NCBI GenBank assembly: GCA_964016885.1
Contig: OZ024745.1
Span: forward strand, 52,886,001-52,950,000
DNA from: Eledone cirrhosa
Taxonomy: Eukaryota
Direction: 5' to 3'
Length of the DNA stretch: 64,000 nucleotides
Numbering within the stretch: the stretch's first letter is position 1; each line of letters starts with the position of its first letter. The notes beneath the pieces were generated by a model. The model was not told the origin of the DNA, made no database searches, and saw nothing but the letters and a program-made list of their open reading frames with translations. Of the stretch, positions 19,901-59,223 are shown piece by piece. The position numbers were made by a program, and so were the translations under genes.

Positions 19901-21174
19901 TATTATATTTCCATTACATACTGTTTCGTTATGTTCATTCAAGTATATATCAACATAACCCGACACGCATATGCACGACGTATTGGCTAAGTAGGGTATG
20001 TTTAAAGGAATATTATTTAACCGAGCTGAAATACTGCGTAATATAGTTAATGTAGTTAATTAAAATATATAAAAATTTTAAAATGAAAATATAAATATAA
20101 CGCGTTCCGTTTTAGACAACTCTCAAATGCCTTTTATGTAGTTAATTGAGTGTTTTAAGTTGTTATCAAATTAAGTATTATCAAATTAAAAATAAGACAA
20201 ATTATTTTTATACATACGGTTTTATGTCTATATGAATAAAGGTTTGCGTTATGGATAATTTTACAGTCATAAATTATTCCGTTACTCTAAGAATTTTTGG
20301 GAAAATATGAAAATTCCGCAACGCAAATGACTGTAATAATACCCGATCACAATAAATAAAGTTTGAGTAAATTGGGTAAAGTAAATATAGAGATGCAAAA
20401 ATTAGACAGAGGTGCCTATGACAAATTGAACAGCGTATCTCTATAATGAATTATATTATATATATTAAAGATATTTTGCAGGGTATTAAAACACAAACGT
20501 GGTTTAGGAATGTTTTTTTGATAATTAATTGAGTATGTGTGTTTGTGTGTGTGAGTTATTTAAGTGACAAATGCAGAATGTTTTGCACCATTTATTAAAA
20601 GACAATCATATGTAGCTCCATATATATGTTCAGGATCATTTTTGAACGGAGAATATGACTAACAAGAGACCGGAATTTAGTGATGAAGGCAGACAGTTTC
20701 AAGTAATTAAGAAAACTTTCCTGGGAAAGAATATTGTCTCTAGTTCGGAAGTGAGGTACACTTATGTACAAGTTTGGCGAGGTGAATGTTGCTTCATTAG
20801 CATACCTTTGAACTCCTTGACACTGAATGCGAACAAATATATTTAAGAGTTAACTAATTGGTTTGCTAAGTTCATTGGCCTATTTGAAATAAAAGAGAAA
20901 CATAATTAAAGGGGCTTATAGAATGAATTTGATTAAAATATCGATGAAATACTCAATGCAGCAAAAAGAGTTATAAATGATTAAAATTCCACTTACAAAA
21001 TCCAAAAGTCAATTCTTAGCAAATTTAAATTAGAGAAGCGAATAATTTCCAGATTTTAAAATAAATTAGTTTAACAAACAAAGCATTCAGCCCAGTTCTC
21101 TTAGTAAAGTAATGTATTTTGTTGACAATAGTGATTTTATCCAATACAATCATACATTTAAATTAATTTTACGT

Positions 21175-21302
<128 letters not shown>

Positions 21303-21610
21303 AAGGGAGTATAACTTGAACTTACTGCAGGTTCAACCGGGTGAGCACTCGATGTTTAGGTTCGCTTCTGTGTTCAGGTGTAGAACTATACAGAGTAATA
21401 ACAAGGTCGATTGTTTACTCCTACATTTATTGGTAGGTGACGTGCGTTTCGCCACAGATCAGCTCATGGTTCGATCTGTATCGATCTTTACCGACTCTAT
21501 AATCGGCAGCTCGACGGACCCTTTAAACCATGAGCTGATCAGTGGCGAAACGCGCGTCACCTACCAATAAATGTAATGAAAGAGTAACCAATCGTCTTTG
21601 TTAACCTTTC
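21303..21610. mobile_element. (TA)n-flanked element with inverted arms carrying the 3' half of an HHR and AATAAA (Penelope pLTR-like)
   Basis: Arms 21399-21471 and 21526-21603 are inverted. Each reads ATGA-gct(..)ggc-GAAAC-gc(g/a)c-GTC-acctacc-AATAAA. Confidence 0.65.
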
Positions 21611-21629
21611 AATATATATATATATATAA

Positions 21630-22252
21630 ATGTAAAAAATGAAATTTCATTTCTCACTCTTATTACGGCTGATACTTAAATATAAGTATGTATATGTACA
21701 TACATATATGTATACATATGTATATACATACATGCATATATATATATATATATATATGTGTACGTATGGGTTTCCCGAACATTTATTATAATGCTCGGTT
21801 TGTTTGTAAACAAACAGCCCGAATTATTAGCCGTACAGTGTCGGCAACAATCTTTGCCCTTTTGTTCAACACTAACTAAGGAACGATGAACTAGTTTCTA
21901 GCTTATTAGCTGTCATCAGCATCGTATACCTTCCTGTCAGTCGATTGAACGTTTGAAAGTATATACTTTCCTTATGCATATTAACGGCTGAGCAACCTAA
22001 TTAACATATCGAGTGAGTTAGTCGGCTGGGTGTACCGAAAACGATAAAGGGAAAAAATGAAATTGCATTTCTCACTCTTATTACGGCTGATACATAAATA
22101 TAAGTATGTATACGTACATACATATATGTATACATACGTACAGTAGTATGTATATATATACATACATGCACACATATATATATATGTGTACGTATGGGCT
22201 TACTGAACGTTTATTATAATGCTCGGTTTGTTTGTAAACAAACAGTCCGAAT

Positions 22253-22255
<3 letters not shown>
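21630..22255 (-). mobile_element. ~1.4 units of a ~425-bp HHR-containing repeat, relative of the 468-bp array
   Basis: Internal duplication (ctcactct at 21653 and 22071). Reverse-complement homology to 27060-27577 and 27841-29178. (TA)n on both sides. Confidence 0.85.
21883..21925 (-). ncRNA. Minimal type I hammerhead ribozyme
   Basis: Minus strand: acgatg-CTGATGA-c.agct(aata)agct.a-GAAA-ctag-TT-catcgt. Confidence 0.8.
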
Positions 22256-22286
<31 letters not shown>

Positions 22287-22288
22287 CC

Positions 22289-22352
<64 letters not shown>

Positions 22353-22365
22353 TAGAGAGAGAGAG

Positions 22366-22435
22366 AAGAAGAAGAAGAAGAAGAAGAAGATAAAGAAGAA
22401 GAAGAAGAAGAAGAAGAAGAAGAAGAAGAAGAAGA
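22366..22435. repeat. (GAA)n microsatellite
   Basis: Directly visible. Confidence 0.9.
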
Positions 22436-23199
22436 GAGAACGCGAAAGAAAGAGAAAGAGAGATGGACTCGTCCCCCCCCCCCCCCCTATGACATGCCGA
22501 GACACACTTCCGGATTTGTCAACAGAAATCTGATATTTCTAATATGATTAATAATGTTTGTTTTACCGAAGTTTAATGTATATATGTATTTTTGATTTTT
22601 CTATTACGAATATTTGTTTTCCTTTAGATTATCAAAATATCCCGAATGACAAAATGCTCTGTAATAAATAAAAATGGGTTTAAGTAAATATAATTTGCTT
22701 TAGGTCTTGCGTAAGGTTTCATATGATGAAATTACTCTCAAAAACACAATCAGATCAAAATTATTGTGATAAACTCGCAGTATAAAATATATTTTTGCCG
22801 GTGCACAACATTCTCTGTATTATCGAATAAGGAGGGTTTCCCAAAAGGAAAATAAGTACTGAATGGTATAATTAATTCAATACACGTCTTTAAAGCATTA
22901 CCAATCATGTTTCTTTATTTGCTTTTCGAGAAAAACTACAAACCCTTCATCTCAATTCTACTTTTGAAAAGCAGAACTGCGAAACTGGTAAAGGAACCAA
23001 ATAAATATATATTTAAAAAAAAAAGACTCCAGTGGCACTTTCGATTTCATCTTTTTTTCCTTATAATTTCACTCGTGTAGGACACCTCGTTTTTTTTTCA
23101 TTTTGTTAAAAAACCTCACTTTCTAATATATATATCTTATCTTATATATAAAGTGAAGTTGGGCGTTGTTTGTTTGTTTGGTGTCCCGAACTTGCAGGC

Positions 23200-23550
23200 T
23201 ACACCGTTCATCCGATTTTCATGAAACCTGACATATATATAAAACTCGACGCGTAGATTGGAATAGGCTGCTTGCAATTGGGCCCCCCAGAAGCCAAAAG
23301 TCGATATTTTCAAAATTCGACCGATTTCGATGAAACTCGAGGCAACTGTGTACTTTGATCCGGGGATGAACGTGGGCTACAGTAAATTTTCAAAAATTCG
23401 ATAATTGGATCACCAGAAGCAAAAATCGATATTTACGAAATTTGTCCGATTCCAATGAAATTTGACGTAGGTATGTATTTTGATATTTTGATGCGGGGAT
23501 CAACATGGGGTACTTGCAAATTTCAAAGACCCGAGAATCGGACCCCAGAG
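23200..23550 (+). repeat. Three diverged ~110-125-bp subrepeats
   Basis: ccgatt..atgaaa motif recurs at about 23212, 23321 and 23447. Confidence 0.7.
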
Positions 23551-23839
23551 TCAAAATTCCGGCAACCCCAAAACGTTATTCTTCTTGCTTCTATTTGTCG
23601 CGACTCCCGCCATGCAAAATACGTTCAATCTATTAGGATTATCCACCGTAAGTCTCTTTAAATTAACGCTCACCATATTCAACAAACCTTTTTATGCCGA
23701 TTCTTCCATTTCTTATATAAGGACTATCAAGACTATACCGCCGCGCATCATCCTGTGTTGCGCCCAGTCTTCTAAAGCGATCAACGAGCCTCCATGCACT
23801 CTCTTCCTTCCCGTGGTCCCACTACCGTAGCATAATGAG

Positions 23840-25500
23840 GCATCCGTCAACCCCTCCCCTCTCCCTTCTCTGCACGCCGTCGACCCACTGCATCGTTGTG
23901 CATCACCATGCGCATCTCTGCACTGTCAGACGCAATTCATTCCGCGGTCCTTTCGATTGCCTGCCCTCCGTGGTCCCTAAGGACTGCCACAGCTGAACAT
24001 GCCGAATCCCTGCCACCGTCCACCCCTGCTCATTTCCATTGCCTACACTACGGGAGAGCTCAAGACTTCCATGCCTGACCAAGCCGCATCCCTGCTATCG
24101 TCAACCCCTGCCCTCTCCCTTCCCTGTACGCCGCCGTCCCACTGCATCGTCATGCTTCACCATGCCGCATTACTGCCCTGTCGACCACCAGCCCCTCCTC
24201 AGCCCTTTATTTTGCCTGCCCACCGTGCTCCTTCAAGACTGCCATGCCTAACCAAGCCGCATCCATGCCACCATCAAGTCCTGCCCTCTCCCTTCCCTGC
24301 ACGCCCACGTCCCATTTCATCGTCATGCCTCACCATGCCGCAGCCATGATCTGTCAGCCGTCATACCCTCCCCTGCTCTCTCCCTTGCCCGCACGCCTTG
24401 GTCCTTCACGAGTGCCATGGCTCACCATGCGGAATCCCTGCAACCGTCAATCCCGGCCATATCCCTTCCCTGCACGCCGTCGACCCACTACATCGTTAGG
24501 CCTCACCATGCTGCATCCATGATCTGTCAGCCGACATCCCCTCCTCAGCCCTTTATTTTGCCTGCCCGCCGTGCTCCTTCAAGACTGCCATGCCTAACCA
24601 AGCCGCATCCCTGCCACCGTCAACCCTGCCCTCTCCCTTGCCCGCACGCCATGGTCCCTCACGACTGCCATGGCTCACTATGCGGCATTCCTGCCCTGTC
24701 AGCAACTTGCTCAAATGTCATCAGCATGGTTTATTCCTGCGCCGCACAGAACCGCCCATTATCTCAAACCAAAGACAGCACCGAACATGAAGACGATCTT
24801 GTATAAGTCTTTTTACATTCATTTTGACCTTATTTAAAAAAATTAAACAAAAATGTATCCCTTTCTCCTCCAAAACCTACCGATCATGTATGGCCGATAA
24901 ACATCCTGCCTTGCACCCAGTTTTCTCAAACAATCATCGTGCCCCCCGGTGCTCTCTACATTCCCGAGGTGCAACTCAATTGGCATGCCACATTCACGCC
25001 CTGTCAGCCGCTATGCACCCTGCCCTTTCGTCATGCCTCATCATGTTGCATCCCTGCCCTGTCAGCCTCCATCCACTCCCCGACCCTTTCCACTGCCTAG
25101 GCATGGCAGTCTTGCTGACCAAGTCGCATCCCTGCCACCGTCAACCCCTGCCCTCTCCGTTCCCTACACGCTGTCGTCCCACTACATTGTCATGTATCAC
25201 CATGCCGCATCAATGCTCTGTCAGCCGCCATCCCCTCCTCGGCCCTTTCTTTTTCCTGCCCGCAGTGCTCCTTCAAGACTGCCATGGCTCAACATGCGGC
25301 ATCCTTGCCAGCGTCCACACCTGCCCTCATCCTTGCCTGCTGGCCGTCGTCCCACTGCATCGTCATGCGTCAGGATGCAGCATCCATGCACTGTCAGCCA
25401 CCATCCCCTCCTCGGCCCTTTCTTTTGCCTGACCGCCGTGCTCCTTCAAGACTCCCATGGCTACCTATGCCGCATCAATTCATTGCCATCCGCTTAAACG
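23840..25500 (+). repeat. C-rich diverged minisatellite, ~173-bp unit
   Basis: caagactgccatg..accaagccgcatcc-type motif recurs at ~24061, 24235, 24408 and 24581. The MPNQAAS ORF starts at 24244 and 24590 are 346 bp apart. Confidence 0.85.
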
Positions 25501-27059
25501 TCATCAGCATGGCTTACTGTTGCCCCATTTGACCACCGATTTTCGCAGGCTAAATACAATACTAACGTGCACGATAATCCATAGTAAATCTTTTTAATTA
25601 CATGTTCATCATGCAAATCAAAGGATGAATATCAACTCTTTCATTTCTCCTGACATGCCTTTCTGTCAATTATGGCCGAGAAGCATCCTGTGTAGCATCG
25701 CGTCTTCTCAAGCGATCAGCGTGCCTTCCACTGTCCTCACAATTGACTCACAACGCCGCATCTATTCCCTGCGACGCCCCTAAACATCATCAGCATGGCT
25801 TATTTTTCTGCCGCGTTTAACCGGCCCTCATTCTAGGCCATAAACAAGAAAACCGCACGATGATGCTGCGTAAGTCTATTTAAATTAATGGTCAAAATGT
25901 TCAGCAAAACAATTGTACCAACTCTTCCTCTTCACCTCCAAGGCCTATCCATTACATCTTAGAGGTTGGGATTCGCAATTTCTACGATTTCAATATGGAC
26001 ACAACAGTCCGTCAGGTTTTTCGGCACATGTTGTTCCGATAGGAATATCAACGTGATTTTCACTTAATTCGTAAGTGTTCAGTCTTCCCTATGCTTTTAT
26101 TTGTTATTGATACAACACCGACTAGAATCATCTAACTTCAGTTTGTAGATTAGACACGAATCACAAGGAAAATAATCCTCTGAAATACAACCCCACCAAA
26201 TTCTTTGGTCTACCTAGATTTCAATGGCTATATCCTTTGCTTTTGTACGGTTGTACATTTGACAATGTAGCAAATCATTATTCCACTTGATTCTTACTTT
26301 TCAGCTATGAATTGGGCAGTGCCTTAAAATCTCGGTTTATTTGCGTGCAGTTTTTGGGTATCTTATGAATAGAGAATCGAAAACCCTTTTTCTCATAACC
26401 TGATACATGCGTTACACATGCTCCATGGATGTTTGTGGACTATTTTTTCAAAATACCAATATCACAGATTGGAGCACAAAAAGAAACGTTTGTTCTTCAT
26501 TTATTTCGGTTAAAGCTTCCTGCTGGAATTTAGCGCAGACCCGTTTAAATTCAGCGCCTTATAACCCAGAGTGTAACCGGGTACACCAGCTAGAAAGACA
26601 AATGGAAACATTGTTTCCTCGGTCCGATTTGACGAAAGTCGATATAGTTTCACAACAAATTAACAAACCATACTTGAAGACACGTTGAGGCTGTTGCAAA
26701 GGGCAATAACCTTAAACACAATTTTGATCAACTTTTTTTCACCTATAGCAAATTTACCGAGACAGGTTTTTAGCTACTCAAATCTACTTCAGAGGTCACG
26801 CATTCATGTAAAAAATCAATAAAACTGAAGCGGGATTCGACTTTGCGCAAAAAACAAGGCAGAGTTGCACATGGGACAACTTTTTACAGGAACGACCGAT
26901 TTTCTTGAAAACTATCGCAAAAGACTCGCCATTATGCCGCGGTTCAGATAAACTCCCTTTTATTTCTTATTCTGCACATCTGAGCGCCAAAATTGTAAAA
27001 AGAAAAAAACTGTGAAAAAAATCGATTTTTTTTTTTTCTCTTTAAAATCGATTTTTTCT

Positions 27060-27577
27060 TTAAAAATACATATATGTAAGTATGCACGCATATATATATA
27101 CATACTACTGTACGTCTGTATACATATATGTATGTACGTGTACATACTTATATTTAAGTAACAGCCGTACTAAGAGTGGGAAATGAAATTTCGTTTCATT
27201 TTTTCCGTTTATCGTTTTCGGTGCACCGGGCCGATTAACCCACTCCACTCGATATGCAAATTGGGCTACTCAGCCGTTAATATGCATAAGGTAAGTATAT
27301 ACGTTCAACAATCTGACAGGAAGGTATACGTTGCTGACGATAGCTAATGGGCTTGAAACTAGTACAGCGTTCCTTTGTCAGTGTTGAACAAACGAGCAAC
27401 GATGGTTGCTGGACACTACGGCTTAATACGGGATGATTGTTTACAAACACACCGAGCATTATAATAAATGTTCGGTGAATTCATACGTACATATATGTAT
27501 GTGTGCATGTATGTATATATATATACATACTACTGTACGTCTCTATACATATATGTATGTACGTGTACATACTTACA
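27060..27577 (+). mobile_element. ~1.2 units of the ~425-bp HHR-containing repeat
   Basis: catactactgtacgtct recurs at 27101 and 27526. Homologous to 21630-22255 (inverted) and to the 468-bp array. Confidence 0.85.
27328..27370 (+). ncRNA. Minimal type I hammerhead ribozyme
   Basis: acgttg-CTGACGA-t.agct(aatg)ggct.t-GAAA-ctag-TA-cagcgt. Confidence 0.75.
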
Positions 27578-27616
27578 TATATATATATATTTAGTCCAGA
27601 ATATATATATATATTT

Positions 27617-27754
27617 TAGTCCAGAATTAGCCGTCGAAACTTCTTGAGCTCAGCCGTCGGGGTCCTACTCGTTCCTATTACCCACTCTACTACCCTAAGT
27701 ATTGAGTACTTTGGTGCGTTATGGTCCACCTGGTTCCTTACCACATTTCCTCCG

Positions 27755-27756
<2 letters not shown>
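27617..27756 (+). mobile_element. Second copy of the 13330 repeat family, ending at (TA)n
   Basis: Shares ctctactaccctaagtattgagtact.tggtgcgttatggtcca.ctggttccttaccac with the reverse complement of 13345-13401. Confidence 0.75.
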
Positions 27757-27832
<76 letters not shown>

Positions 27833-27895
27833 CGGAGGAAATTTTCATAAGGAAAGTATATACTTTCGAACGTTCAACTATCTGGCAGATGGGTA

Positions 27896-27940
27896 AACGG
27901 TGCTGATGATAGCTAACAAGCTTGAAACTAGTACATCGTT
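27896..27940 (+). ncRNA. Minimal type I hammerhead ribozyme (array unit 1)
   Basis: aacggtg-CTGATGA-t.agct(aaca)agct.t-GAAA-ctag-TA-catcgtt: 7-bp stem I with one G.U, GUA cleavage triplet. Confidence 0.8.
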
Positions 27941-28363
27941 CCTGTGTCAGTGTTGAACAAAAAGGTGACGTGGTTGCCTTAACACCGTATGGCATAAATT
28001 CAGGCTGTTCAGTTTGTTTACAAACGAACAAAGCGACGTTATAATAAGCGCCGCTAAACTGATACGTGCATATATGTATGTGTACCTGTATGCATATGTA
28101 TATATATATGTATATATATATATGTGCATGCTACTGTACGTCTGTATACATATATGTATGTACGTATACATGCATACTTACATTTAAGTAAGTGCCATAC
28201 TAAGAGTGAGAAATGAAATTTCGTTTTCATTTTGTTTCAATTTATCGTTTTCGGTATGCCTGACCGATTTAACTCACTCAATATGCAAATTAGGCTGCTC
28301 AGCCGTTAATTTTCATAAGGAAAGTATATACTTTCGAACGTTCAACTATCTGGCAGATGGGTA

Positions 28364-28408
28364 AACGGTGCTGATGATAGCTAACAAGCTTGAAACTAGT
28401 ACATCGTT
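28364..28408 (+). ncRNA. Minimal type I hammerhead ribozyme (array unit 2)
   Basis: Identical to 27896-27940. Confidence 0.8.
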
Positions 28409-28831
28409 CCTGTGTCAGTGTTGAACAAAAAGGTGACGTGGTTGCCTTAACACCGTATGGCATAAATTCAGGCTGTTCAGTTTGTTTACAAACGAACAAA
28501 GCGACGTTATAATAAGCGCCGCTAAACTGATACGTGCATATATGTATGTGTACCTGTATGCATATGTATATATATATGTATATATATATATGTGCATGCT
28601 ACTGTACGTCTGTATACATATATGTATGTACGTATACATGCATACTTACATTTAAGTAAGTGCCATACTAAGAGTGAGAAATGAAATTTCGTTTTCATTT
28701 TGTTTCAATTTATCGTTTTCGGTATGCCTGACCGATTTAACTCACTCAATATGCAAATTAGGCTGCTCAGCCGTTAATTTTCATAAGGAAAGTATATACT
28801 TTCGAACGTTCAACTATCTGGCAGATGGGTA

Positions 28832-28876
28832 AACGGTGCTGATGATAGCTAACAAGCTTGAAACTAGTACATCGTT
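28832..28876 (+). ncRNA. Minimal type I hammerhead ribozyme (array unit 3)
   Basis: Identical to 27896-27940. Confidence 0.8.
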
Positions 28877-29178
28877 CCTGTGTCAGTGTTGAACAAAAAG
28901 GTGACGTGGTTGCCTTAACACCGTATGGCATAAATTCAGGCTGTTCAGTTTGTTTACAAACGAACAAAGCGACGTTATAATAAGCGCCGCTAAACTGATA
29001 CGTGCATATATGTATGTGTACCTGTATGCATATGTATATATATATGTATATATATATATGTGCATGCTACTGTACGTCTGTATACATATATGTATGTACG
29101 TATACATGCATACTTACATTTAAGTAAGTGCCATACTAAGAGTGAGAAATGAAATTTCGTTTACATTTTGTTTCAATT

Positions 29179-29209
<31 letters not shown>

Positions 29210-30244
29210 TAGAAATTTAATTCTGCAAAAGCACTATACATATTTCGGGAACCGTCTGCTATTGATATAACACAAAATTAACAGGCAGACCCGGAAACAA
29301 ATCAGCCCACTGTTTTCTATTTTCTATTTTTTTCCATCTCCATTCTTCCATTCTATGTTTGGTTTCAACGTAATCCTGTTACATAATTCATGTAAATAAT
29401 CCCTCTAGAAACCATATAGTCTTGTATCATAATAAGTAGAGTGCTTTCGTGTGATTAAAATTCTAAAGCAAATGTTCCAGTCATGTTATCTGTTCTTTTA
29501 ATGAATACTTTACTCTGTCAAATCAGCGACCACTGGATACCACATCTATGACGGATGATTTGCATAACATTGAGTTTTTCAATTGAATTTTGCCTCATCT
29601 CTTACCAACCCGAACGACAATTTCTACCTATTGGTAAAAAGCCTATATATATATATATATACACACACACAAACATATATATATATATATATATACAAAA
29701 ATGTGTGGGTGTGTTCGTTTGTGTGCATGCCTCCTGGGATGCAATATGAATTACGAAGATGGTGAGCAAAATCATATATGGTAACAAGTGTCTGACAAAT
29801 ATATATTACGTTGTTGTGTACGTCCAACATGGAGCTATTTGTAGTGTTCAACAACTATAACGTGGAGGCAATGAGAAATGTTTAATGTAGTTGAAAATAC
29901 TGAAGACAATGGGGTAACTGTATGAGATATGAGAAAGGGGAAAGGGCGAAATAAAGAAAGAAGGATAGAATAGAAAAATGAAGAAATTAAATTAGAAAAG
30001 AAGGATGATTAATTGAAGCGTGAGAACGGTTGGATGTAATGTTTATAATATTGTACTGAATAGTTAATATTAGAGATATTGTAATATTATTCGCACTTTA
30101 TTTCTTGTAATTCCGACATATCTTGCATGCTGGAGTTACAAGTAAATTAAATTACATTCTGTGGATGAGGCACTACACAGACATCAATCGAGGTCGAATT
30201 AGATTTACTCTGACTTAGTAGAATAGCAATTCCGTTACATTGAA

Positions 30245-35870: not shown

Positions 35871-36566
35871 GTGCATGTGTGTGTGTGTGTATATGTGTGC
35901 ATGTGTGTGAGTGTGCGCGCATGTGGGTGTGGGTATGTATGTATGTATTTATGCGTACACTAATATGTATATATTTGTGCGTATGTATTTGTATTCGTGG
36001 ATTTATCTGCATATGTGTGTAAGCATATATTTGCGTATGTATATTTGTATATATGCCGCACGAAGAAGAGAATCGAAGAGGAAAATGCTACAACATATAA
36101 TTTTCACAAAAGACGTTGAACAATTTGGCCGTTGAACCATTAAACAAATTGGTAATTATAGGGTAGGACCACAATTTGAAAACCAGAAAAGAGAAAAGTT
36201 AATTGCTGGGTCAGCATAGAAGTTATTTGCCGTAATCTATTGGTGAATTGATTGATTTAAGCTCGGCATGTAGCTTCATAATGTTTTTCTCGCCAACACT
36301 ATAAAGCTGTCCACACAGCTTTCCAGATGTTTGTCGCCATCATTTTGCCTGACAAAATTGCTACCCAAGTATTATGATCAACTTTGATGAAGAGAGACAT
36401 TTGTAAAAGTATGGGAAACGACATTACGTTAGAGTTAAGTATGTTTAACGTATATTACATGAGCAATATACCTCATGTAAAAATGTTGCCATATATACAT
36501 ATATATGTATGTTTGAATACTGATATTGGGGTTTTCCAATATATAACTTGCTTCTTCTCTCCATTA

Positions 36567-36597
<31 letters not shown>

Positions 36598-38081
36598 TAC
36601 GTGGGCTTTGGCGTTGGTGTAGAGCAGTGATATCAGGTCCACTATGTTCTTGGGGATTCCATAAGCCTGTAAGATCTTCATTAGGCAGCGACGGTTCACA
36701 GAATCAAAGGCCTTCCTAAAGTCAATGAAAACCATGACCGCAGGAAGGCACTTTGCTCTAGCTCCCTCTAATATTCTCCTCAGCATCAGGATGTGACTGA
36801 TGGTTGATCTTCTATCTCTGAAGCCGTTCTGGTTGTCCCTGAGCTTCTTCTCAGACTGGATCCTGGTAAGAATCATCCTGTTGAGAGTTTTTGCCACAAG
36901 TAACGTGAGTGACATCCCCTTGTAGTTGTTGGTGTTAGAGGGATCTCCCTTCTTTGGCACTGGGACGATGTTACTGATCCACTGATTCAGGGCAACTCCT
37001 CTCTCCAGTGCCTGGTTACAGAACCCCAGGATGATATCATCAAAATCACACCTCTTCATCACCTCTGATGCCACTTCATCTTCTCCATGAGCCTTGCCCT
37101 CCTTGATCTTCTTCTTGGCTCTCTGAAGCTCCTCTCTGGTGAAGTCATTTACACCTGATGTGATGACAGAGTTCTTTGAGATACTGGTTGGAGTGCACCA
37201 GGGAGATACATTGGCCCCCTACCTTTTTATCATCGTAGTGGACTATTGTATGCGCCTTGCACTGGAGAAACACCAGGACTCTGGCTTTACTGTAGCACCG
37301 GCTCAGAGCAGGAGATTTAAGGCGAAAAACATATCGGATGATGCATTTGCCGACGACATGGTTTTGGTGACAAATACAGTGAAGGAGGCAGAGGATTTGA
37401 TGCAGGAGGTTGAAACTGTGTCGATGAGTGTGGGGCTGAGAATGAATGAGACTAAAACAAAATATCTGGTAGAGAATGGTGAGAAACCAGCGGGGATCAC
37501 TAATGTAGGCGGGAAGCCGCTAGAATTGGTTGAGGACTTCCTGTATTTGGGAGCAAAGATTGGTAATATTGTAGTTGATGTGGTTGAGAGGAAGAGCAAA
37601 GCCTGGGTGGCGTGCCACAGCTAGAGATCGGTGTGGAGTCGGACCTTCGTAAAGACCTTAAAATCCGCCTCTTCATTGCTGTAGTGGAGTCTGTGCTGCT
37701 GTACGGGTCTGAGACTTGGAAACTGACCAAGAAACTCACTCAAATGGTGGATGGGTGCTACACGAGAATGGTGAGGATGGCTCTGAACATTAATCAGTAT
37801 ACACTGAGGATGAAAACTCGGAGCTGTATGGGAGCCTCCCAAAAGCCAGCTCAAAAGTGACACAGAGGAGACTGAGGTCAGCTGGACATGCTCACCGACA
37901 TCCGGAGTTGACATTGCACTCAGTGCTCCTGTGGGAGCCCCTACATGGACACACTGGAAGAGGAAGACCAAGGTTAACGTATGTTGATGCCCTAAGGACA
38001 TGGCAGTTATAATGAGGGGCCTGATACCGCTGGAGAGAACTCGTCCATGGATCTCGGGAATTTTACTCGCCCTAGAAGAAG
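36598..38081 (+). mobile_element. RTE-clade LINE, 5'-truncated and 5'-inverted, 9-bp TSD ATATACAGA
   Basis: Minus 37149->36598 gives FTREELQRAKKKIKEGKAHGED..VPVPKKGD..NQNGFR..FIDFRKAFDSV..LYTNAKAHV. Plus from 37151 continues TPDVMTEFFEILVGVHQGDTLAPYLF..FADD..FLYLG..LLYGSETW. Short (GAA)n tail. TSD at 36589-36597 and 38082-38090. Confidence 0.93.
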
Positions 38082-47422: not shown

Positions 47423-47589
47423 ATAAATATATGTATATAAATATACATGTATATATATATAAAAATATATATATATATATATACATATATATATACATAT
47501 ATATACATATATATATACATATATGTATATATATATATATATGTATGTATATATTTATATATATATATAATGTTCAACAACCAGAATAA

Positions 47590-48500
47590 GAAAAACAAAC
47601 AAAAAATGTATTCAATTTGATATTGCCAGCTACTATTCTTCTATTTCGCCTTCACTTCTCAACAATGCTTTTAAATATTCTGACATCACCACAGATGAAC
47701 TTCACATCATTCTCACCGCAAGAAAAACCATCTTAGAATTCAACAATGAACACTGGACTAGAGCTGATACCTCCATCAACTTTGATATCACAATGGGTCC
47801 TTCCGATTCATCGCAATTGACTGATTTGATTGGTAGTTTTATTTTGAATGCTTTAAATCGGAAAATTCCTCAACTTCGTGGTGGAATTTATCGTGACGAT
47901 GGAGTTTTCACTATCTTAAATTGCAATTTAGTTAACCTTAATATTATTAAGAACAATATACGTGATCTCCTTAAGCAACATAACTTTAAAATCGAATTTG
48001 ATACCAACGTCAAACTAGCTAACTTCTTGGATATATCCCTTAATCTGACACTGGCCTATATTACCCTTACCATAAAAACAATGAGAATCTAAATTATGTT
48101 AATTTTAAATCTAACCGCCCCACTAACATTAAAAATGCTATAGTTAGTAATATTGGAAAAAGAATATCAAACATATCCTCTAATAAAAATATAATAGATG
48201 CTAACGCCAATTACTATAATAATGCGCTTTCTAAAGCCGGTTATCCTGATAAAATTAAATACAGTAAAGAAACCAATCCTAGAAGGTCTTACAGTAAAAT
48301 AATTAATTATGAACATTCCAATAACTTAAATAAAAGACCTAGATACAAAAATATAATCTGGTATAATGCTCCTTTCTCTATTTCTATTAATAATAATATT
48401 CCTAAACTATTCTTTAGGGCCTTGGATAAATGCTTCCCTCCCTCACATATCTATAGTAACATATTTAACAAACATACAATAAAATATATATACAACAAAT
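47590..48500 (+). mobile_element. Penelope-like element RT fragment, frameshifted, GIY-YIG domain absent
   Basis: [40 protein letters not shown], then after a frameshift YVNFKSNRP..RISNISSN..YNNALSKAGY..NIIWYNAPFS..FP..HIYSNIFNKHTIK. This is typical PLE RT and thumb sequence. Starts next to (TA)n. Confidence 0.85.
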
Positions 48501-49124
48501 GTTCACGGTACAATCAGAAGAAAACCTAATTTGGGTGAAATTTTGGCCGCTTACACAAACTGGTGACACTTATTTGGATGTTTCATATAGTGACGTTGCA
48601 ATTAAATGTTCTAGGGGGATGGACATCTTAACCGTTCTTTGGACGAGTTTTATACAAAGATGCGAATTTATTCGGTACTTTAATACATTATCCTCATGAG
48701 AGTGATAATATAGTTAAAGAGAAATATACAAGGAGCCCATATTAACTTCCAACATGATGAGAACTTATTCAACATAAGACGTCTTGAGCTACCACTATGT
48801 TTATATCTGAAGAGATGATTAATTTACATAATCTAATGATCGTGTTATAGTGTATCACAATGCTGAAGATTTCAAGCTAACGGCACGGGAGACGATATGA
48901 TTCATGATGGAATTAATCTGCGAATTGAAACTTGTGGTGGAAAAGCCCGTCGCTTAGGTATACTTTATAGTGTAGGAAGCCAGATGGTTGGATATGGAGT
49001 ACTAAGTTAAATAAAGATATAAAGGATCGATCGACTTTCGTCAAATCGGACCGAGGAAACAATGTTTTCGTCGGTCTTTCCAGTTGCTAATACTATCTAT
49101 CGGTCGCAACTCCAGGTAGAAGGT

Positions 49125-49902: not shown

Positions 49903-49937
<35 letters not shown>

Positions 49938-50008
49938 ATGTGTGTGTGTGTGTGTGTGCGCGTGCGGGTAAGTGTGTATGCGTGTGGGTGGCTGTGTGTG
50001 TGTGTGTG

Positions 50009-50279
50009 TGCAAAAACTAAATAGAAATGAAAACGCAAACAACACAGTATAATGAGCAAATTAGTTTACCGATTGATATACGCGGAAAAGCATCTTAACA
50101 TTTCGGTCACAAGTCTTTCATCAGGGTTTAGTGTGAGAAATAAACCATGAAAGAGAGAGTGAGAAGCGGAAAGTATGGAAAAAATTATTTGAAAAAACAT
50201 CACATATAGTCAGTCAGCCATTCTTATATAGACACACACACACACACACACACACATACACACACACACACACACACAT

Positions 50280-50353
<74 letters not shown>

Positions 50354-50580
50354 GCATCTGCGTCTATATAAGAATGGCTGACTGACTACATGTGATATTT
50401 TTTCAAATAATTTTTTCCATACTTTCTGCTTCTCACTCTCTCTTTCATGGTTTATTTCTCACGCTAAATACTGATGAAAGACTTGTGACCGAAATGTTAA
50501 GATGCTTTTCCGAGTATATCAAACAGTATTTTGCTCATTATACTGTGCTGTTTGCGTTTTCATTCTAATTAGTTTTTGCA
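50009..50580. repeat. ~220-bp inverted repeat around a (CA)n(TA)n(TG)n spacer
   Basis: 50009-50233 and 50362-50580 are reverse complements. Each arm has CTGATGA-aagacttgtgacc-GAAA, a degenerate HHR core. Confidence 0.92.
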
Positions 50581-51865
50581 TACACACAGACACGCACACG
50601 CATACACACATATACACACACGCACGCACACACACACACATATATATATACACACACAAATGTATAATCTGTGTGTATGTGTGTGTGTTTGTTTACGTGC
50701 GTGTGTATTCAAGAGTATGTTTATGCGTTCCTATTTGTATGTATCTTTACAGTGTGACATTCGTGTGTGTCATTGATAAACAAATACAAAGATGCCAAGT
50801 ATATAGTAGCCAAAATCATAAAATCGATTCTTAATTTTTCCAAATGTATTCGTCTAATACATATTATAAACTTCTGGCGTATATAAACATGAATGTGCTT
50901 CATACATTTCTCATTTGGCTTTCGTTAATATTTTCTTTTTTTATTATTAATATTTTTTCGGAGAGTGAGATAGAAACGTGTCCTTTTCCTTAGAGAAATA
51001 ATTTACCCAGCCATAGAAGAGAACAAACTATAATGTGTTGAATGTTACGGTTAGTTATTATACAATATAATGTATGTTCAAACAAGGTATCATTAATGCA
51101 GTGGTTAGACAAGCTAGAATAATTGCAAGATATCTGTCCAATGACACCCTACCGCTTTCATATAAGAAGTCTGCGTTGCACATATCGTCAATGATGTTCA
51201 AAAAGTTTGAATGATGAAGATTCGATTAGATTTGGAAAAATATCTGCTCAATTTTGTTTTGAATTGTTAATATCAACAACGACCCAAGGAATGTATGTAG
51301 TGAAAAATACATTAATTTATTACCAACGGGAGCTGAGCGGAGCTATTTATAACAAGGAGACGAAACATGCATAGTTTATCTTATCGTTAGATTATTTAAA
51401 TGCCATGTACACTATCATACATCTACTTTTGAATATGCAAGAAACGCTTTTAACTGTACATCGATTAATGGCGCTGAAGATGTTGCGCATGACAGATTCC
51501 AGCCCAACTGAAACCATTCTGCATATTACTTAGCAGTTTATTCTTTCTTGGAAAGTTATCAGCTTCTCATAAATAATTTCTCCCATGAACTCGTTGATAT
51601 ATGACGTCAGGTAGACTGGTTGTGTGTGACTTGATATTTGCTCTTCGTCCTTCTTACGTAATAGAGGTCATCACGGTGTCTTAGTCAAGGTGTTCTTGTT
51701 TCATTATCTGCAGGAATTTAGCCCAGCAGTCCTTTCATATCGTTCATATGTCAGGCCATTTTAAAATAATTCACTCAATCTCGTTCATTGTACATATTCC
51801 GTGTGCATCAAATGTTATTCACGTGAAATCCATATGTAATGAGAGAAACCCACACACACACACAG

Positions 51866-53891: not shown

Positions 53892-55828
53892 AGTTGCATT
53901 TATCTTGCTTTATGTTCATACGAGTTATCACCAAGTCACAACCAGTGACCTCAAGAGACAACAAGGTCCGCCATGTTCAAGAAAGAACTTACATACTCAC
54001 ACATGCATCTTTAGTGTTTAGACTTGTGATGTACTTATATTGACAGAATCTTCCTTAGTATATGGGCAGTTCCCATTAGTACTATCTATTGTATTTCTCC
54101 TATACGCGGGTTTCCTGGGATTTGCGATAAGTAATCATTAGACCCCTTAGGTATCATTCCCAGAGCGCCTACAACCACTGGTATTGTTTTAGTTCTCAAT
54201 TTCCACATTTTTCCAATTTCTATCTCCAGGTCCTTATACTTGCTCAATTTTTCAAATGTTTTTATAGATACATTCTTGTCTATTGGAACAGACATATCAA
54301 TTAGCAGGCATACCATCTTTTTAAAGTCCTTCAATATTATATCAGGTCTATTTGCATCTATTTTTCGGTCTGTTTGGATGCTAAAGTTCCACAAGATTGA
54401 GATGTGATCTTTTTCAAGTATGGGAGGTGGTTGATGCTCCCACTAATTCTTTTGATGGGGCAAGTCAAAATGCTTACACATTATCCAATGTATGTATTGT
54501 GCAGCTCTGTCATGCCTGTTTAGGTATTCGGTTGGAGCTATAGGACTGCACATTGAAATTATATGGTCAATGGTCTCTGGTTGTTTTTTGCATACACTGC
54601 ATCCATTTTTTATTATGTTGGGTTGGTAATTTTTTGTTGGCAGACACTGATCTTGTGCTGATATAATCAGTCCTTCAGTCTCCGATTTCAGTCCAGAGGA
54701 TGGGTTAAAGTTTTGTCAACATCAGGATTGTTAGCTCGCTCTGGGTATTTTCCATACAGACGCTTTTGTTGCCATTTCTTAGCCAGTTTCTGTAGCAGTT
54801 CTTTCTTTGCAGTTACTTTTACCTGCTTTGCTTTTTCTGTGTTTTACATTTCAGCAGTAAATGGGACTTCTGAAATTTGTAGTCCATTACTGTATCTTTG
54901 TGCATCTTTTGTAACGGAATATTGTCTTTTGATGCTTTCGTGTTTCAAAACGAGTTTGATCATCCAATCATGAGATTCCCTTAGATATGTAGATAATCCA
55001 ATTGTTGCAGTTTTCAACGCAATGTCTAACTGGATTAACCCACGTCCTCCTTCTTTCCTAGGGAGATATATTATATCTATATCTGCCTTAGGGTGATGCA
55101 TTCTGTGCATGGTTAAGAATTTTCGAATTTTTGTATCGAGCCTACGGATCTCTGTGCTTGACCAGTTGATGACATTGTAACTGTAGGTTACTACTGGTAT
55201 GGCAAGCGTGTTTATGGCATCGATCCTATTCCTTGCATTCAATTCCGTTCTTAAGATTGCTCTTACTCTGCGGTAACATTCCTTCCTTATCCTTTCCCTC
55301 ATTGTCGAGTGCTTGATTCCGTCTCCTTCACAAACACCTAGATATTTGTAAGTTTTTTCTTGATCAAGTTCTCTTATCACGTTCCCCCGATCAAGATTAA
55401 TGTCTGAACTCTTCAGCAGCTTTCCTCTGGTGAACGTTGCTTTGGCGCATTTATCTAGTCCAAACTTCATTTTAATGTCATCACTGAACTGCTCCACAGT
55501 GGATAATAGACCTTGCAATTGTTCATCATTTTTTGCAAATAGTTTCAGGTCATCCATGTAGAACAAGTGATTAATGGTTTTGTCATAGACTTTATATCCA
55601 TGTTTTGTTTCATTGAGCATTTTACTTAATGGTATAAGTGCGATGCAGAATAAAAGCGGTGATAAAGAGTCACCCTGAAAAATTCCACAATTAATATTAA
55701 CTTCTCTAGCTTCCAGTGATTTTGTTTCACTATTCAAAAGGAGTGTCGTTTTCCATGTCTTCATACTGAATGACAAAAACCTCCTGACAACGGGGGATAT
55801 TTTGAAAATCTCTAAACATTTTCCAATC
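53891..55828 (-). mobile_element. Dong/R4-type RLE non-LTR retrotransposon, 5'-truncated, inserted in (TAA)n
   Basis: RT: GIFQGDSLSPLLF..HLFYMDDLKLF..YKYLG..YLPRKEGGRGL. Zinc knuckle: CSVCKKQPETIDHIISMC. RLE: RHD..NRPDII..LLIDMSVP..EKLSKYKDL..PVVVGALG. The ORF ends at ~54035 with several stops and frameshifts. (TTA)n at both 53859-53890 and 55829-55890. Confidence 0.9.
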
Positions 55829-55890
<62 letters not shown>

Positions 55891-55891
55891 T

Positions 55892-55950
<59 letters not shown>
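55829..55950. repeat. (TTA)n-(GTA)n compound microsatellite
   Basis: Directly visible. Confidence 0.95.
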
Positions 55951-55951
<1 letters not shown>

Positions 55952-56298
55952 ATGGTGGTGGTAGAAAAAGTAGTAGTGAACAGGTCAGCGCCTCAGCAAC
56001 GGTCAAATAAAATTAATAGTCATAGTAAAGTGTAAAGAGTTCTTAATGTGAATAATGAGGAAGTAGCCCTTGCTATTTAGCTTCAAAGATTTCTCACAGG
56101 TGTAGCCAATCGTTTGGCGCCGAATAATTTGCTTCATTGAGTCATATGATTCCGAATAATATGTCGAAAGTGTAAATATATGAGACATTTCTTTGGCAAA
56201 ACTTCTCTGTAGAGGAAAAATCAATGTTTAATGAAAGTTTCGAAGGTGTAAGATTGGGGAAAGTGCCTCTCTCTCTCTTTATATATATAAACACATGC

Positions 56299-58134: not shown

Positions 58135-59223
58135 TATATATCCAAAATTAATTTAATTAAATTAAATTATGGAGTCATGTCCGAGACATGCGCCATATCC
58201 ACTGTAGTATAAGCTCAAAGATTCCAATGAATAGATCCGAGCATTTTATATCAACTAGAAATTGATTGACATATATATATATTTAAAATAAACACATGAA
58301 ACAATCACAGGGGATAATTTGTAATGTGTGTAAAAACACACAGCTAGGTAGGAAACTAATTAGATCTTCAAATATTACCTTTTAAAAAATGATTAATCTT
58401 CCTTGTATATATTTCATTAAAGAAATATATTTTACCATTAATTCGTAAAGTAGCAGTAGTCAAATCCCGAATCTTCAGCAAGGGAGAAGATTTGAATGAA
58501 ATATATACAAGGAAGATTAATCATTTTTTAAAAGGTAATATTTGAAGCTCTAGTTAAACTTTAATTAGTTACCTATCTAGCTATGTGTGATTACACACTT
58601 TACAAATTATCCCATGTGATTGTTTCATGTGTTTATTTTAAATATATATATATGTCAATCAATTTCTAGTTGATATAAAATGCTCGGATCTATTCATTGG
58701 AATCTTTGAGCTTATTCTACGGTGGGTATGGCGCATGTCTCGCACATGACTCCCTTAATTTAATTTAATTTAATTAATTTTGGATATATACACGGCTCCT
58801 TAATTGTAGAGCTAACTCAGTTGAAAGGACTCGGCTGCTATTTATAGCTGTCGATCACCCTATTCACGCCACTGGGATGACGCTAGCATGTTGTTAGTAG
58901 TTTTAGAATTGCAACATGTGCGATGGGTCACTTGCAGATTTGCATTTGATGTGTAAACACAGATAGTTAAATCTTCTTCCCTGCTGAATAATCGGAATTT
59001 GAGTAGTGTGACTTTACAGATTAATGGTGAAATATATTTCTTTAATGAAATATATACAAGGAAGATTAATCATGTTTTAAAAGGTAATATTTGAAGCTCT
59101 AGTTAAACTTTAATTAGTTACCTACCTAGCTATGTGTGATTACACACTTTACAAATTTTATCCCCTGTGATTGTTTCATATGTTTATTTTAAATATATAT
59201 ATATATGTCAATCAATTTCTAGT

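What the first reader, a model, noticed from the sequence alone, without database searches (positions are those of the whole stretch)
21883..27940. Covariation across three diverged copies supports the HHR fold and shows a non-canonical stem II closing pair
Seen: one stem I position is A-U in the 21883 copy (acgatg/catcgt), U.G in the 27328 copy (acgttg/cagcgt) and G.U in the array (acggtg/catcgt). The other changes fall at N7 (U/C), around loop 2 (aata/aatg/aaca, plus one A-to-G giving a U.G pair) and at H17 (U/A), while CUGA.GA and GAAA-CUAG-U are invariant. The 10.1-11.1 pair, normally G-C, is U/U, U/U and C/A. Inference: selection on RNA structure in the source lineages, with a tolerated or attenuating mismatch.
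Basis: partly seen in the sequence, partly recalled or inferred. Interest (0 to 1): 0.75.

Follow-up and report, generated by a model that had tools for sequence, protein, structure and literature searches.

The report
Retrozyme hammerheads with drifting closing mismatch
These are hammerhead-shaped, likely self-cutting RNA motifs in a very abundant jumping repeat of a known kind; related families in the same genome show that the fold was conserved, while one normally fixed base pair stayed mismatched (U with U, C with A, A with A) through large expansions, likely because the mismatch is tolerated.

Summary
The letters are as described, but three copies do not show covariation: one two-sided change, matched by 158 of 500 shuffles. 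The motifs are type I hammerheads of a non-coding tandem repeat (retrozyme) with about 26,000 genomic matches. In 125 insertions the flagged stem I change is one event via U.U intermediates, and the loop A-to-G is private to one copy. The inference still holds on better data: homologous sister families (flanks 44-66% identical) give two-sided changes in 7 of 10 predicted pairs, and shared variants avoid core and stems (p about 0.03, unbiased sample) while single copies decay neutrally. The 10.1-11.1 position is U.U (about 96% of this family), C.A (about 830 copies), A.A (697 matches) or G-C (9,498 matches). U.U is published, including in axolotl retrozymes; C.A and A.A were not found in four searches. 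Pair-restoring mutants occur only at background level, so the mismatch is tolerated; selected attenuation is not shown. Cleavage is untested. The scan has noted such retrozymes elsewhere in this genome before.

The parts
21626..22254 (-). Retrozyme insertion of the C.A / U17 subfamily, about 1.5 units, TA repeats on both sides
21883..21925 (-). Type I hammerhead motif: C3 at 21919, C10.1 at 21912, A11.1 at 21899, U17 at 21889 (predicted cut between 21889 and 21888); stem I pair 2.3-1.3 A-U
27066..27585 (+). Retrozyme insertion of the U.U / A17 subfamily with stem I U.G, slightly over one unit
27328..27370 (+). Type I hammerhead motif: C3 at 27334, U10.1 at 27341, U11.1 at 27354, A17 at 27364; private loop 2 changes
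27840..29181 (+). Tandem array, period 468, 2.9 copies, 99% matches, young U.U / A17 subfamily with stem I G.U; ends at the family's fixed 3' end in (TA)n
27897..27939 (+). Type I hammerhead motif, array copy 1: C3 27903, U10.1 27910, U11.1 27923, palindromic helix III 27927-27932, A17 27933 (predicted cut 27933/27934)
28365..28407 (+). Hammerhead motif, array copy 2 (identical)
28833..28875 (+). Hammerhead motif, array copy 3 (identical)
27882..27950 (+). Extended stem I with internal loop 1 around the first array hammerhead (predicted)
29146..29181 (+). Short hairpin and fixed 3' end of the element, joined to (TA)n; likely internal start site of reverse transcription
   Evidence: analogy PMC11167929
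28283..28290 (+). Octamer-like motif 88 bases upstream of C3 (also 27254-27261 and 28751-28758), kept in the sister families; function untested

Best explanation
The five motifs are type I hammerhead sequences in a non-coding tandem repeat with about 26,000 genomic copies, likely a Penelope-mobilised retrozyme whose ribozyme fold was kept by selection in source copies and whose 10.1-11.1 mismatch is likely tolerated rather than required. Shown: core, three helices, copy numbers, tandem and head-to-head layout, fixed 3' end in (TA)n, subfamily structure, compensatory changes between sister families, neutral decay of single copies. Inferred: multimeric transcripts fold as double hammerheads through the palindromic helix III and cut after position 17 to give unit-length RNA; this is likely circularised and reverse-transcribed in trans by a Penelope-like RT/endonuclease from a fixed internal site. 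Inferred: helix II is held by three Watson-Crick pairs, a loop-closing pair and the loop 1-loop 2 contact, so a 1x1 mismatch beside A9.G12 leaves enough cleavage for the cycle; the position drifted through A.A, C.A, C.C/U.C and U.U, and U.U (reported as the best mispair) with A17 gave the largest expansion.
For: Copy numbers 26,148 and 24,723 by a flank-only pattern, controls 0. Sister families homologous along the unit: G-C family 9,498 matches, A.A family 697 matches, 96 of the first 100 A.A with both positions free in the pattern, flank identity 0.44-0.66. RNAalifold on 34 copies predicts helices I and II unaided, 7 of 10 pairs with two-sided changes, and leaves 10.1-11.1 open; covariation score 0.459 against 0.04-0.16 for slid registers; 10.1-11.1 paired in 6 of 34. 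Shared variants in the ribozyme-blind sample of 52 insertions: core 0 of 11, stems 2-3 of 20, flanks 30-35 of 133, Fisher p 0.024-0.035. Private changes core 5 of 572, flanks 68 of 4773, p 0.34. Pair-restoring single mutants not amplified: 176 A17 copies with 11.1 not U, first 100 U.G 32, U-A 29, U.C 26; first 100 of 1,109 with 10.1 not U: G.U 6, A-U 3, G-C 0. Natural U10.1.U11.1 in PMC3088659 and in about 60,000 axolotl retrozyme copies that cleave, better as dimers (PMC7229834).
Against: No cleavage or expression data. Rfam gives no match at gathering score (Hammerhead_HH9 18.5 bits against 52). Core alone is only borderline in the unbiased sample (p 0.04-0.07). The sister families were found with patterns that fix the core, so core identity between families is not independent evidence, and the 34 rows were picked as intact copies, which inflates the share paired. 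Isolated motifs fold with the core sequestered and at z only -1.5 to -1.75. For the C.A subfamily a competing hairpin lowers predicted helix II to 0.25. No autonomous partner was found. In a lizard Penelope element hammerhead cleavage was not needed for insertion in vitro (PMC11167929).
Confidence: 0.62

Rival explanations
1. The mismatch is selected as a brake: cleavage must be slow enough for multimeric or circular RNA to survive, and 10.1-11.1 is tuned together with position 17 (G-C with U17, U.U with A17, A.A with C17 or U17).
For: The position stays mismatched in four families or subfamilies across 35-45% flank divergence although single changes to A-U, U-A, G.U or U.G arise constantly and never spread. 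The two large young families pair G-C with mostly U17 and U.U with A17; GUC and GUA are cited as the fastest sites (PMC3138052 passages).
Against: A four-step path through mismatches alone has probability about 0.15 with equal rates (my arithmetic). The G-C family is young and abundant (9,498 matches), and some of its copies carry C17 (3 of 6 rows from two loci), so a canonical pair is no obstacle. C.A/U17 and A.A/U17 combine two predicted weak traits and still spread. Non-amplification is also what neutrality with few source copies gives.
Confidence: 0.2
2. The fold is conserved but the mismatched versions barely cut on their own: the motif is a protein-assisted or protein-binding structure used by the Penelope protein.
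For: The lizard Penelope hammerhead cleaves only with its protein and is dispensable for insertion in vitro (PMC11167929). C.A copies are predicted to misfold. A.A has no precedent in my searches.
Against: All 11 core positions lack shared variants and N7, the free core position, varies, as in active hammerheads. Retrozyme hammerheads of coral, mussel and axolotl, including the U.U type, cleave without protein.
Confidence: 0.12
3. There is no mismatch pair: the first nucleotide after A9 is the extra bulged base known from Penelope minimal hammerheads and helix II starts one pair later.
For: An unpaired base between 9 and 10.1 is common in Penelope hammerheads (PMC4209133); in the A.A family the next pair is G-C.
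Against: It needs a second extra base before G12. The A9-to-G12 distance is 14 in every family, including the G-C one, where the same two columns pair, and the HH9 model aligns them to 10.1 and 11.1 without gaps. In the U.U family the next pair is A-U, not G-C.
Confidence: 0.06

Closest known systems
Metazoan non-LTR retrozymes, in particular axolotl Rtz_353 with HHR_Amex2 (Cervera and de la Pena 2020, PMC7229834; parts 1-3 of 6 and passages read, supplement unreadable)
   Same: Type I hammerhead in short AT-rich tandem units, no ORF, very high copy number, weak helix III, U.U at the base of helix II in one of two co-existing families, self-paired unit.
   Different: Units of 410-500 bases; palindromic helix III with a 2-base loop; A17 or U17; related families with C.A and A.A closing positions; RNA and cleavage not shown here.
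Natural U10.1-U11.1 hammerheads (Perreault et al. 2011, PMC3088659; section 8 and passages read, supplements searched with no hit; Ruffner et al. 1990 seen only as cited there)
   Same: Same mismatch at the same position, said to be the most active mispair.
   Different: C.A, C.C and A.A are not mentioned in the section read.
Dolichopoda pDo500 satellite hammerheads (PMC2837043, passages read)
   Same: Same analysis and result: hammerhead more conserved than the rest of a repeat, compensatory changes in stems I and II, N7 free.
   Different: There changes at 10.1-11.1 are compensatory; here the position stays unpaired.
Hammerheads in pLTRs of Penelope-like elements (PMC4209133, parts 1-2 of 4 read; PMC11167929, parts 1-2 of 4 read; bioRxiv 10.64898/2026.07.22.740005, abstract and first part of Results read)
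   Same: Palindromic helix III, fixed internal 3' end at a hairpin, AT-rich targets, tandem and inverted copies; retrozymes proposed as non-autonomous derivatives of such elements.
   Different: No RT ORF in or joined to the unit as a partner; canonical 6-bp helix I and 14-base helix II arm, not the minimal type with its conserved G10.1-C11.1.

Membership tests
Type I hammerhead ribozyme | Core C3 U4 G5 A6 N7 G8 A9, G12 A13 A14, A15.1-U16.1, H17 | tested here: met
   All five window copies; intact in 47 of 52 ribozyme-blind insertions
Type I hammerhead ribozyme | Helices I, II and III around the core, helix I open | tested here: met
   Helices I and II covary across the clan; helix III is 2 bp as monomer, 6-bp palindrome as dimer, duplex -4.8 kcal/mol, palindrome kept with other letters in one A.A subfamily
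Type I hammerhead ribozyme | G10.1-C11.1 (consensus trait with published exceptions, not strictly defining) | tested here: not met
   U.U or C.A in the window; G-C only in the sister family; exceptions
Type I hammerhead ribozyme | Loop 1-loop 2 tertiary contact | tested here: inconclusive
   Internal loop after 6 bp of helix I and 6-base loop 2 with invariant first three bases in 34 rows; contact itself not testable
Type I hammerhead ribozyme | Site-specific self-cleavage 3' of H17 | not testable with these tools
   No assay; no raw RNA reads listed
Rfam hammerhead families (clan CL00010) | Score at or above the gathering threshold | tested here: not met
   0 hits in the window; HH9 18.5 bits against 52, E 0.019. 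Not filed under an Rfam family.
Metazoan non-LTR retrozyme | Short tandem units, one type I hammerhead each, low GC, no ORF | tested here: met
   Period 468, mostly 410-500 in loci; GC 0.34-0.36 around the array; only a low-complexity open frame of 120 or more codons there
Metazoan non-LTR retrozyme | Dispersed high copy number | tested here: met
   26,148 matches
Metazoan non-LTR retrozyme | Highly self-paired unit RNA | tested here: met
   Circular fold -152.7 against -105.0 +/- 6.3 in 60 shuffles; partly due to the AT-rich palindromic tract
Metazoan non-LTR retrozyme | Expressed as linear and circular unit-length RNA | not testable with these tools
   No RNA holder listed
Minimal hammerhead of Penelope pLTRs | Helix II of 7-8 bp with an extra base after A9, short helix I, conserved G10.1-C11.1 | tested here: not met
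pLTR of an autonomous Penelope-like element | RT-endonuclease ORF continuous with the repeat | tested here: inconclusive
   In 298 sequences (1.35 Mb) RT fragments of varied identity lie near copies; the two read were separate, truncated pieces after the element's 3' end; no genome-wide partner search made

The most novel reading that the evidence does not exclude
One retrozyme clan provides a natural allelic series at the most conserved helical pair of the hammerhead (G-C, U.U, C.A, C.C, A.A), and the mismatch is actively kept as a rate brake that is balanced against the cleavage-site base, so that retrozyme success depends on an intermediate cleavage rate; A10.1.A11.1 and C10.1.A11.1 would be the first amplified natural hammerheads with these mispairs.
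Probability: 0.2. Interest if true: 0.58.

Novelty: new variant of a known kind. Interest (0 to 1): 0.3.

Why it matters
The element and the U.U pair are known kinds, so the finding as written is ordinary. What is of use is the series found behind it: homologous families with G-C, U.U, C.A and A.A at 10.1-11.1 and A, U or C at 17, each with a measured genomic success (about 9,500, 25,000, 830 and at least 700 copies). It lets one test with a dozen short transcripts how much cleavage a retrozyme needs, and it warns that descriptors or covariance models that demand G10.1-C11.1 miss most hammerheads of such a genome (Rfam found none of five here).

Tried and rejected
DNA search of the own genome returned nothing because common words are skipped; patterns were used instead. 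Pattern scan of metagenome contigs: 0. No RNA holder listed; contigs of six runs of unknown kind show the same variable positions (stem I pair, N7, loop 2, extended stem) but say nothing on expression, and the 468-base 'goes back' joints are what a tandem DNA array gives. Rfam E-value scan of 21000-29500 gave AT-rich miRNA look-alikes among the 150 of 192 rows shown, rejected as low complexity. Patterns for further sister families: 1 hit, 9 hits that were nearly all mutants of the G-C family, 759 and 44 hits; of 53 such loci examined, most were unrelated decayed motifs, and two led to the A.A family. The P of 7e-7 for core identity across families was rejected because the families were found through the core. 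The tblastn used the wrong strand of the RT remnant and is void; redone (my notebook also gives that remnant the wrong strand). The palindrome energy was on a shifted slice; redone. Stem I probabilities were not used. The deep mutational scan of a hammerhead (PMC9901934, passages and supplement list seen) holds no readable table for 10.1-11.1 doubles. Two papers were not held. The octamer-promoter analogy to newt satellite 2 is recalled and found no passage. The root of the clan tree is not resolved, so whether G-C was lost or regained is open.
Full report
Observation. A descriptor scan of the window finds five motifs of one family: C3 at 21919(-), 27334(+), 27903, 28371 and 28839(+). The last three lie in a 468-base array of 2.9 copies at 27840-29181. 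As covariation this is not significant. One of 15 pairs changes on both sides and 158 of 500 shuffles do as well; 151 of 203 flank columns are invariant in the same three copies.

What the element is. The window lies in a 3.0-Gb genome. A 30-base family pattern matches 26,148 times and a pattern anchored only in the flanks 24,723 times, with 0 for reversed controls. Only the first 100 places are listed per search, so my sample comes mostly from contig 1: 150 loci merged to 106 segments (742 kb) plus the window gave 295 hits, 205 covering the ribozyme; 154 were near full length and collapsed to 125 independent insertions. Periods are mostly 410-500; head-to-head neighbours outnumber tail-to-tail 59 to 1; 33 of 177 runs end within ten bases of one site after a short hairpin, mostly into (TA)n, while 124 end where the unmodelled TA-rich part begins and could not be placed. 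There is no coding frame and the unit folds strongly as a circle (z -7.5, partly low complexity). This matches metazoan non-LTR retrozymes (PMC7229834) with Penelope-type ends (PMC8557442 passages; PMC11167929; bioRxiv 10.64898/2026.07.22.740005). Earlier notes of this scan describe such arrays elsewhere in this genome and call it cephalopod-like; I did not test the taxon.

The flagged stem I pair. Among 125 insertions it is G.U 52, U.G 48, A-U 15, U.U 4, other 6. On a tree built from sites outside the ribozyme, U.G is one clade with U.U copies at its base, so the two-sided change happened once, through a mismatch that itself spread. Its mutual information (0.77, rank 3 of 1035) is matched by unpaired columns (0.86, 0.76, 0.75), that is by shared descent. 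The loop 2 A-to-G is in 1 of 205 copies.

Selection within the family. Variants shared by many insertions avoid the ribozyme: core plus stems 2-3 of 35 sites against 23-31% of 133 flank sites (p 0.005-0.012; this set is partly ascertained through the core). In the 52 insertions found by the flank-only pattern: core 0 of 11, stems 2-3 of 20, flanks 30-35 of 133, p 0.024-0.035; core alone p 0.04-0.07. Private changes are not significantly depleted (core 5 of 572, stems 14 of 1092, flanks 68 of 4773; p 0.34) and 5 of 52 copies have a damaged core. This is the pattern expected if only source copies are selected.

Sister families give the real covariation. A pattern for G10.1-C11.1 found 9,498 matches of a young family with 466-469-base units, alignable along the whole unit. 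A third family has A10.1 and A11.1 (481 and 697 matches; 96 of the first 100 are A.A, counted by hand), in two types: helix III closed by a tetraloop with C17 (19 of 27), and a different palindrome with U17 (10 of 10) whose flanks share this family's anchors. It is older (about 9% from its consensus against 1.4-3.3%). Flank identities between families are 0.44-0.66. On 34 selected intact copies RNAalifold predicts helices I and II, 7 of 10 pairs with two-sided changes, and leaves 10.1-11.1 open. With the hammerhead structure given, the covariation score is 0.459 against 0.04-0.16 for slid registers; 0 of 500 shuffles reach it, but the two measures that count pairs or types are not above shuffles (223 and 373 of 500). 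Rows are related and were picked by patterns, so these are a handful of events, not 34; the complementarity of the sister families' stems was not demanded by the patterns that found them.

The closing position. Of the copies with 10.1 not U (1,109), the first 100 are C.A 75, C.U 6, G.U 6, C.C 4, C.G 3, A-U 3, G.A 3, G-C 0 (hand count): about 830 C.A copies, nearly all with U17, against about 25,000 U.U with A17. The C.A group has no near-identical copies (minimum 1.5% from its neighbours) and few arrays (1 of 51 runs with three or more, against 8 of 99). C.C and U.C copies lie near its base. In the clan tree the C.A group sits where the A.A, G-C and U.U branches meet; the U.U clade has weak support (80/95) and the root is open. 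Single changes that would restore a pair exist at about 0.2% each, like the non-restoring U.C, and none has spread. Folding predicts helix II at 0.92-1.0 in all groups but 0.25 in C.A, where A11.1 and U17 allow a hairpin that traps G12, so C.A is predicted to be the weakest.

Mechanism. Shown: anatomy, numbers, conservation pattern. Inferred from related systems: transcription through tandem units, double-hammerhead folding via the palindromic helix III, cleavage after position 17, circularisation, and copying by a Penelope-like enzyme from the fixed internal site into (TA)n. No partner element was identified. The mismatch is most simply tolerated. A selected brake remains possible but a mismatch-only path of four steps has probability about 0.15 by my arithmetic, and the canonical G-C family is thriving.

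Known and new. U10.1.U11.1 is described in natural hammerheads and said to be the most active mispair (PMC3088659 section 8, citing Ruffner 1990, which I did not read), and in about 60,000 axolotl retrozyme copies that cleave 22% in one hour as monomers and better as dimers (PMC7229834). Selection on a hammerhead in a repeat family was shown for cave crickets (PMC2837043). C.A or A.A at this position did not appear in searches or in the passages read; much of the classical hammerhead literature is outside the library and some supplements were unreadable. An unchecked note reports C.A at the base of helix II in other families of this genome.

Verdict. Observation partly confirmed; interpretation partly supported. 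A retrozyme of a known kind with a known U.U variant, plus a modest new series of closing mismatches. Interest 0.3.

Noticed in passing
window 27254-27261, 28283-28290, 28751-28758 (+): Octamer-like motif 80-100 bases upstream of C3, kept in the U.U, C.A, G-C and one A.A family (for example 32 of 40, 16 of 32, 18 of 25, 19 of 31 copies) and lost in the 21883 copy. Candidate internal promoter element; analogy to newt satellite 2 is recalled only.
   Followed up: partly
L256-L297 (G000, several contigs): Older sister family with A10.1.A11.1; one type has a monomer-style helix III with tetraloop and C17, and its stem I pair 2.4-1.4 varies as G-C 8, U-A 7, A-U 2 of 27.
   Followed up: yes
L151-L170 (G000 C1): Young sister family with canonical G10.1-C11.1, long tandem arrays, and a U-A / A-U swap at the second pair of helix II between its two subfamilies.
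   Followed up: yes
L090:1243-1260 (-): A C.A copy ends at the family's fixed 3' site and is joined, without a TA tract, to a 5'-truncated Penelope-like RT fragment on the same strand; either a template switch or a nested insertion. One case.
   Followed up: partly
window 47571-48529 (+): Frame-shifted remnant with RT-like motifs that resemble Penelope-like elements by recall; no Pfam RT hit; relatives are frequent near family copies.
   Followed up: partly
window 49738 (-) and 7637 (+): Two hammerhead-like motifs of other families: one with a long helix II closed by G.U, one with G-C and a different palindrome.
   Followed up: no
window 21415-21580: Inverted repeat whose right arm resembles a hammerhead with a palindromic helix III but has C in place of G8.
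   Followed up: no
window 23840-25480: GC-rich 173-base tandem repeats with strong strand skew between the two retrozyme insertions; unrelated to them.
   Followed up: no
window 49921-50666 and 58135-58790: Long imperfect palindromes, about 85% identical arms.
   Followed up: no
window 54844-55992 (-) and 36445-37624: LINE-type RT remnants; the first matches RVT_1 (E 4e-16), the second is in two pieces on opposite strands.
   Followed up: no
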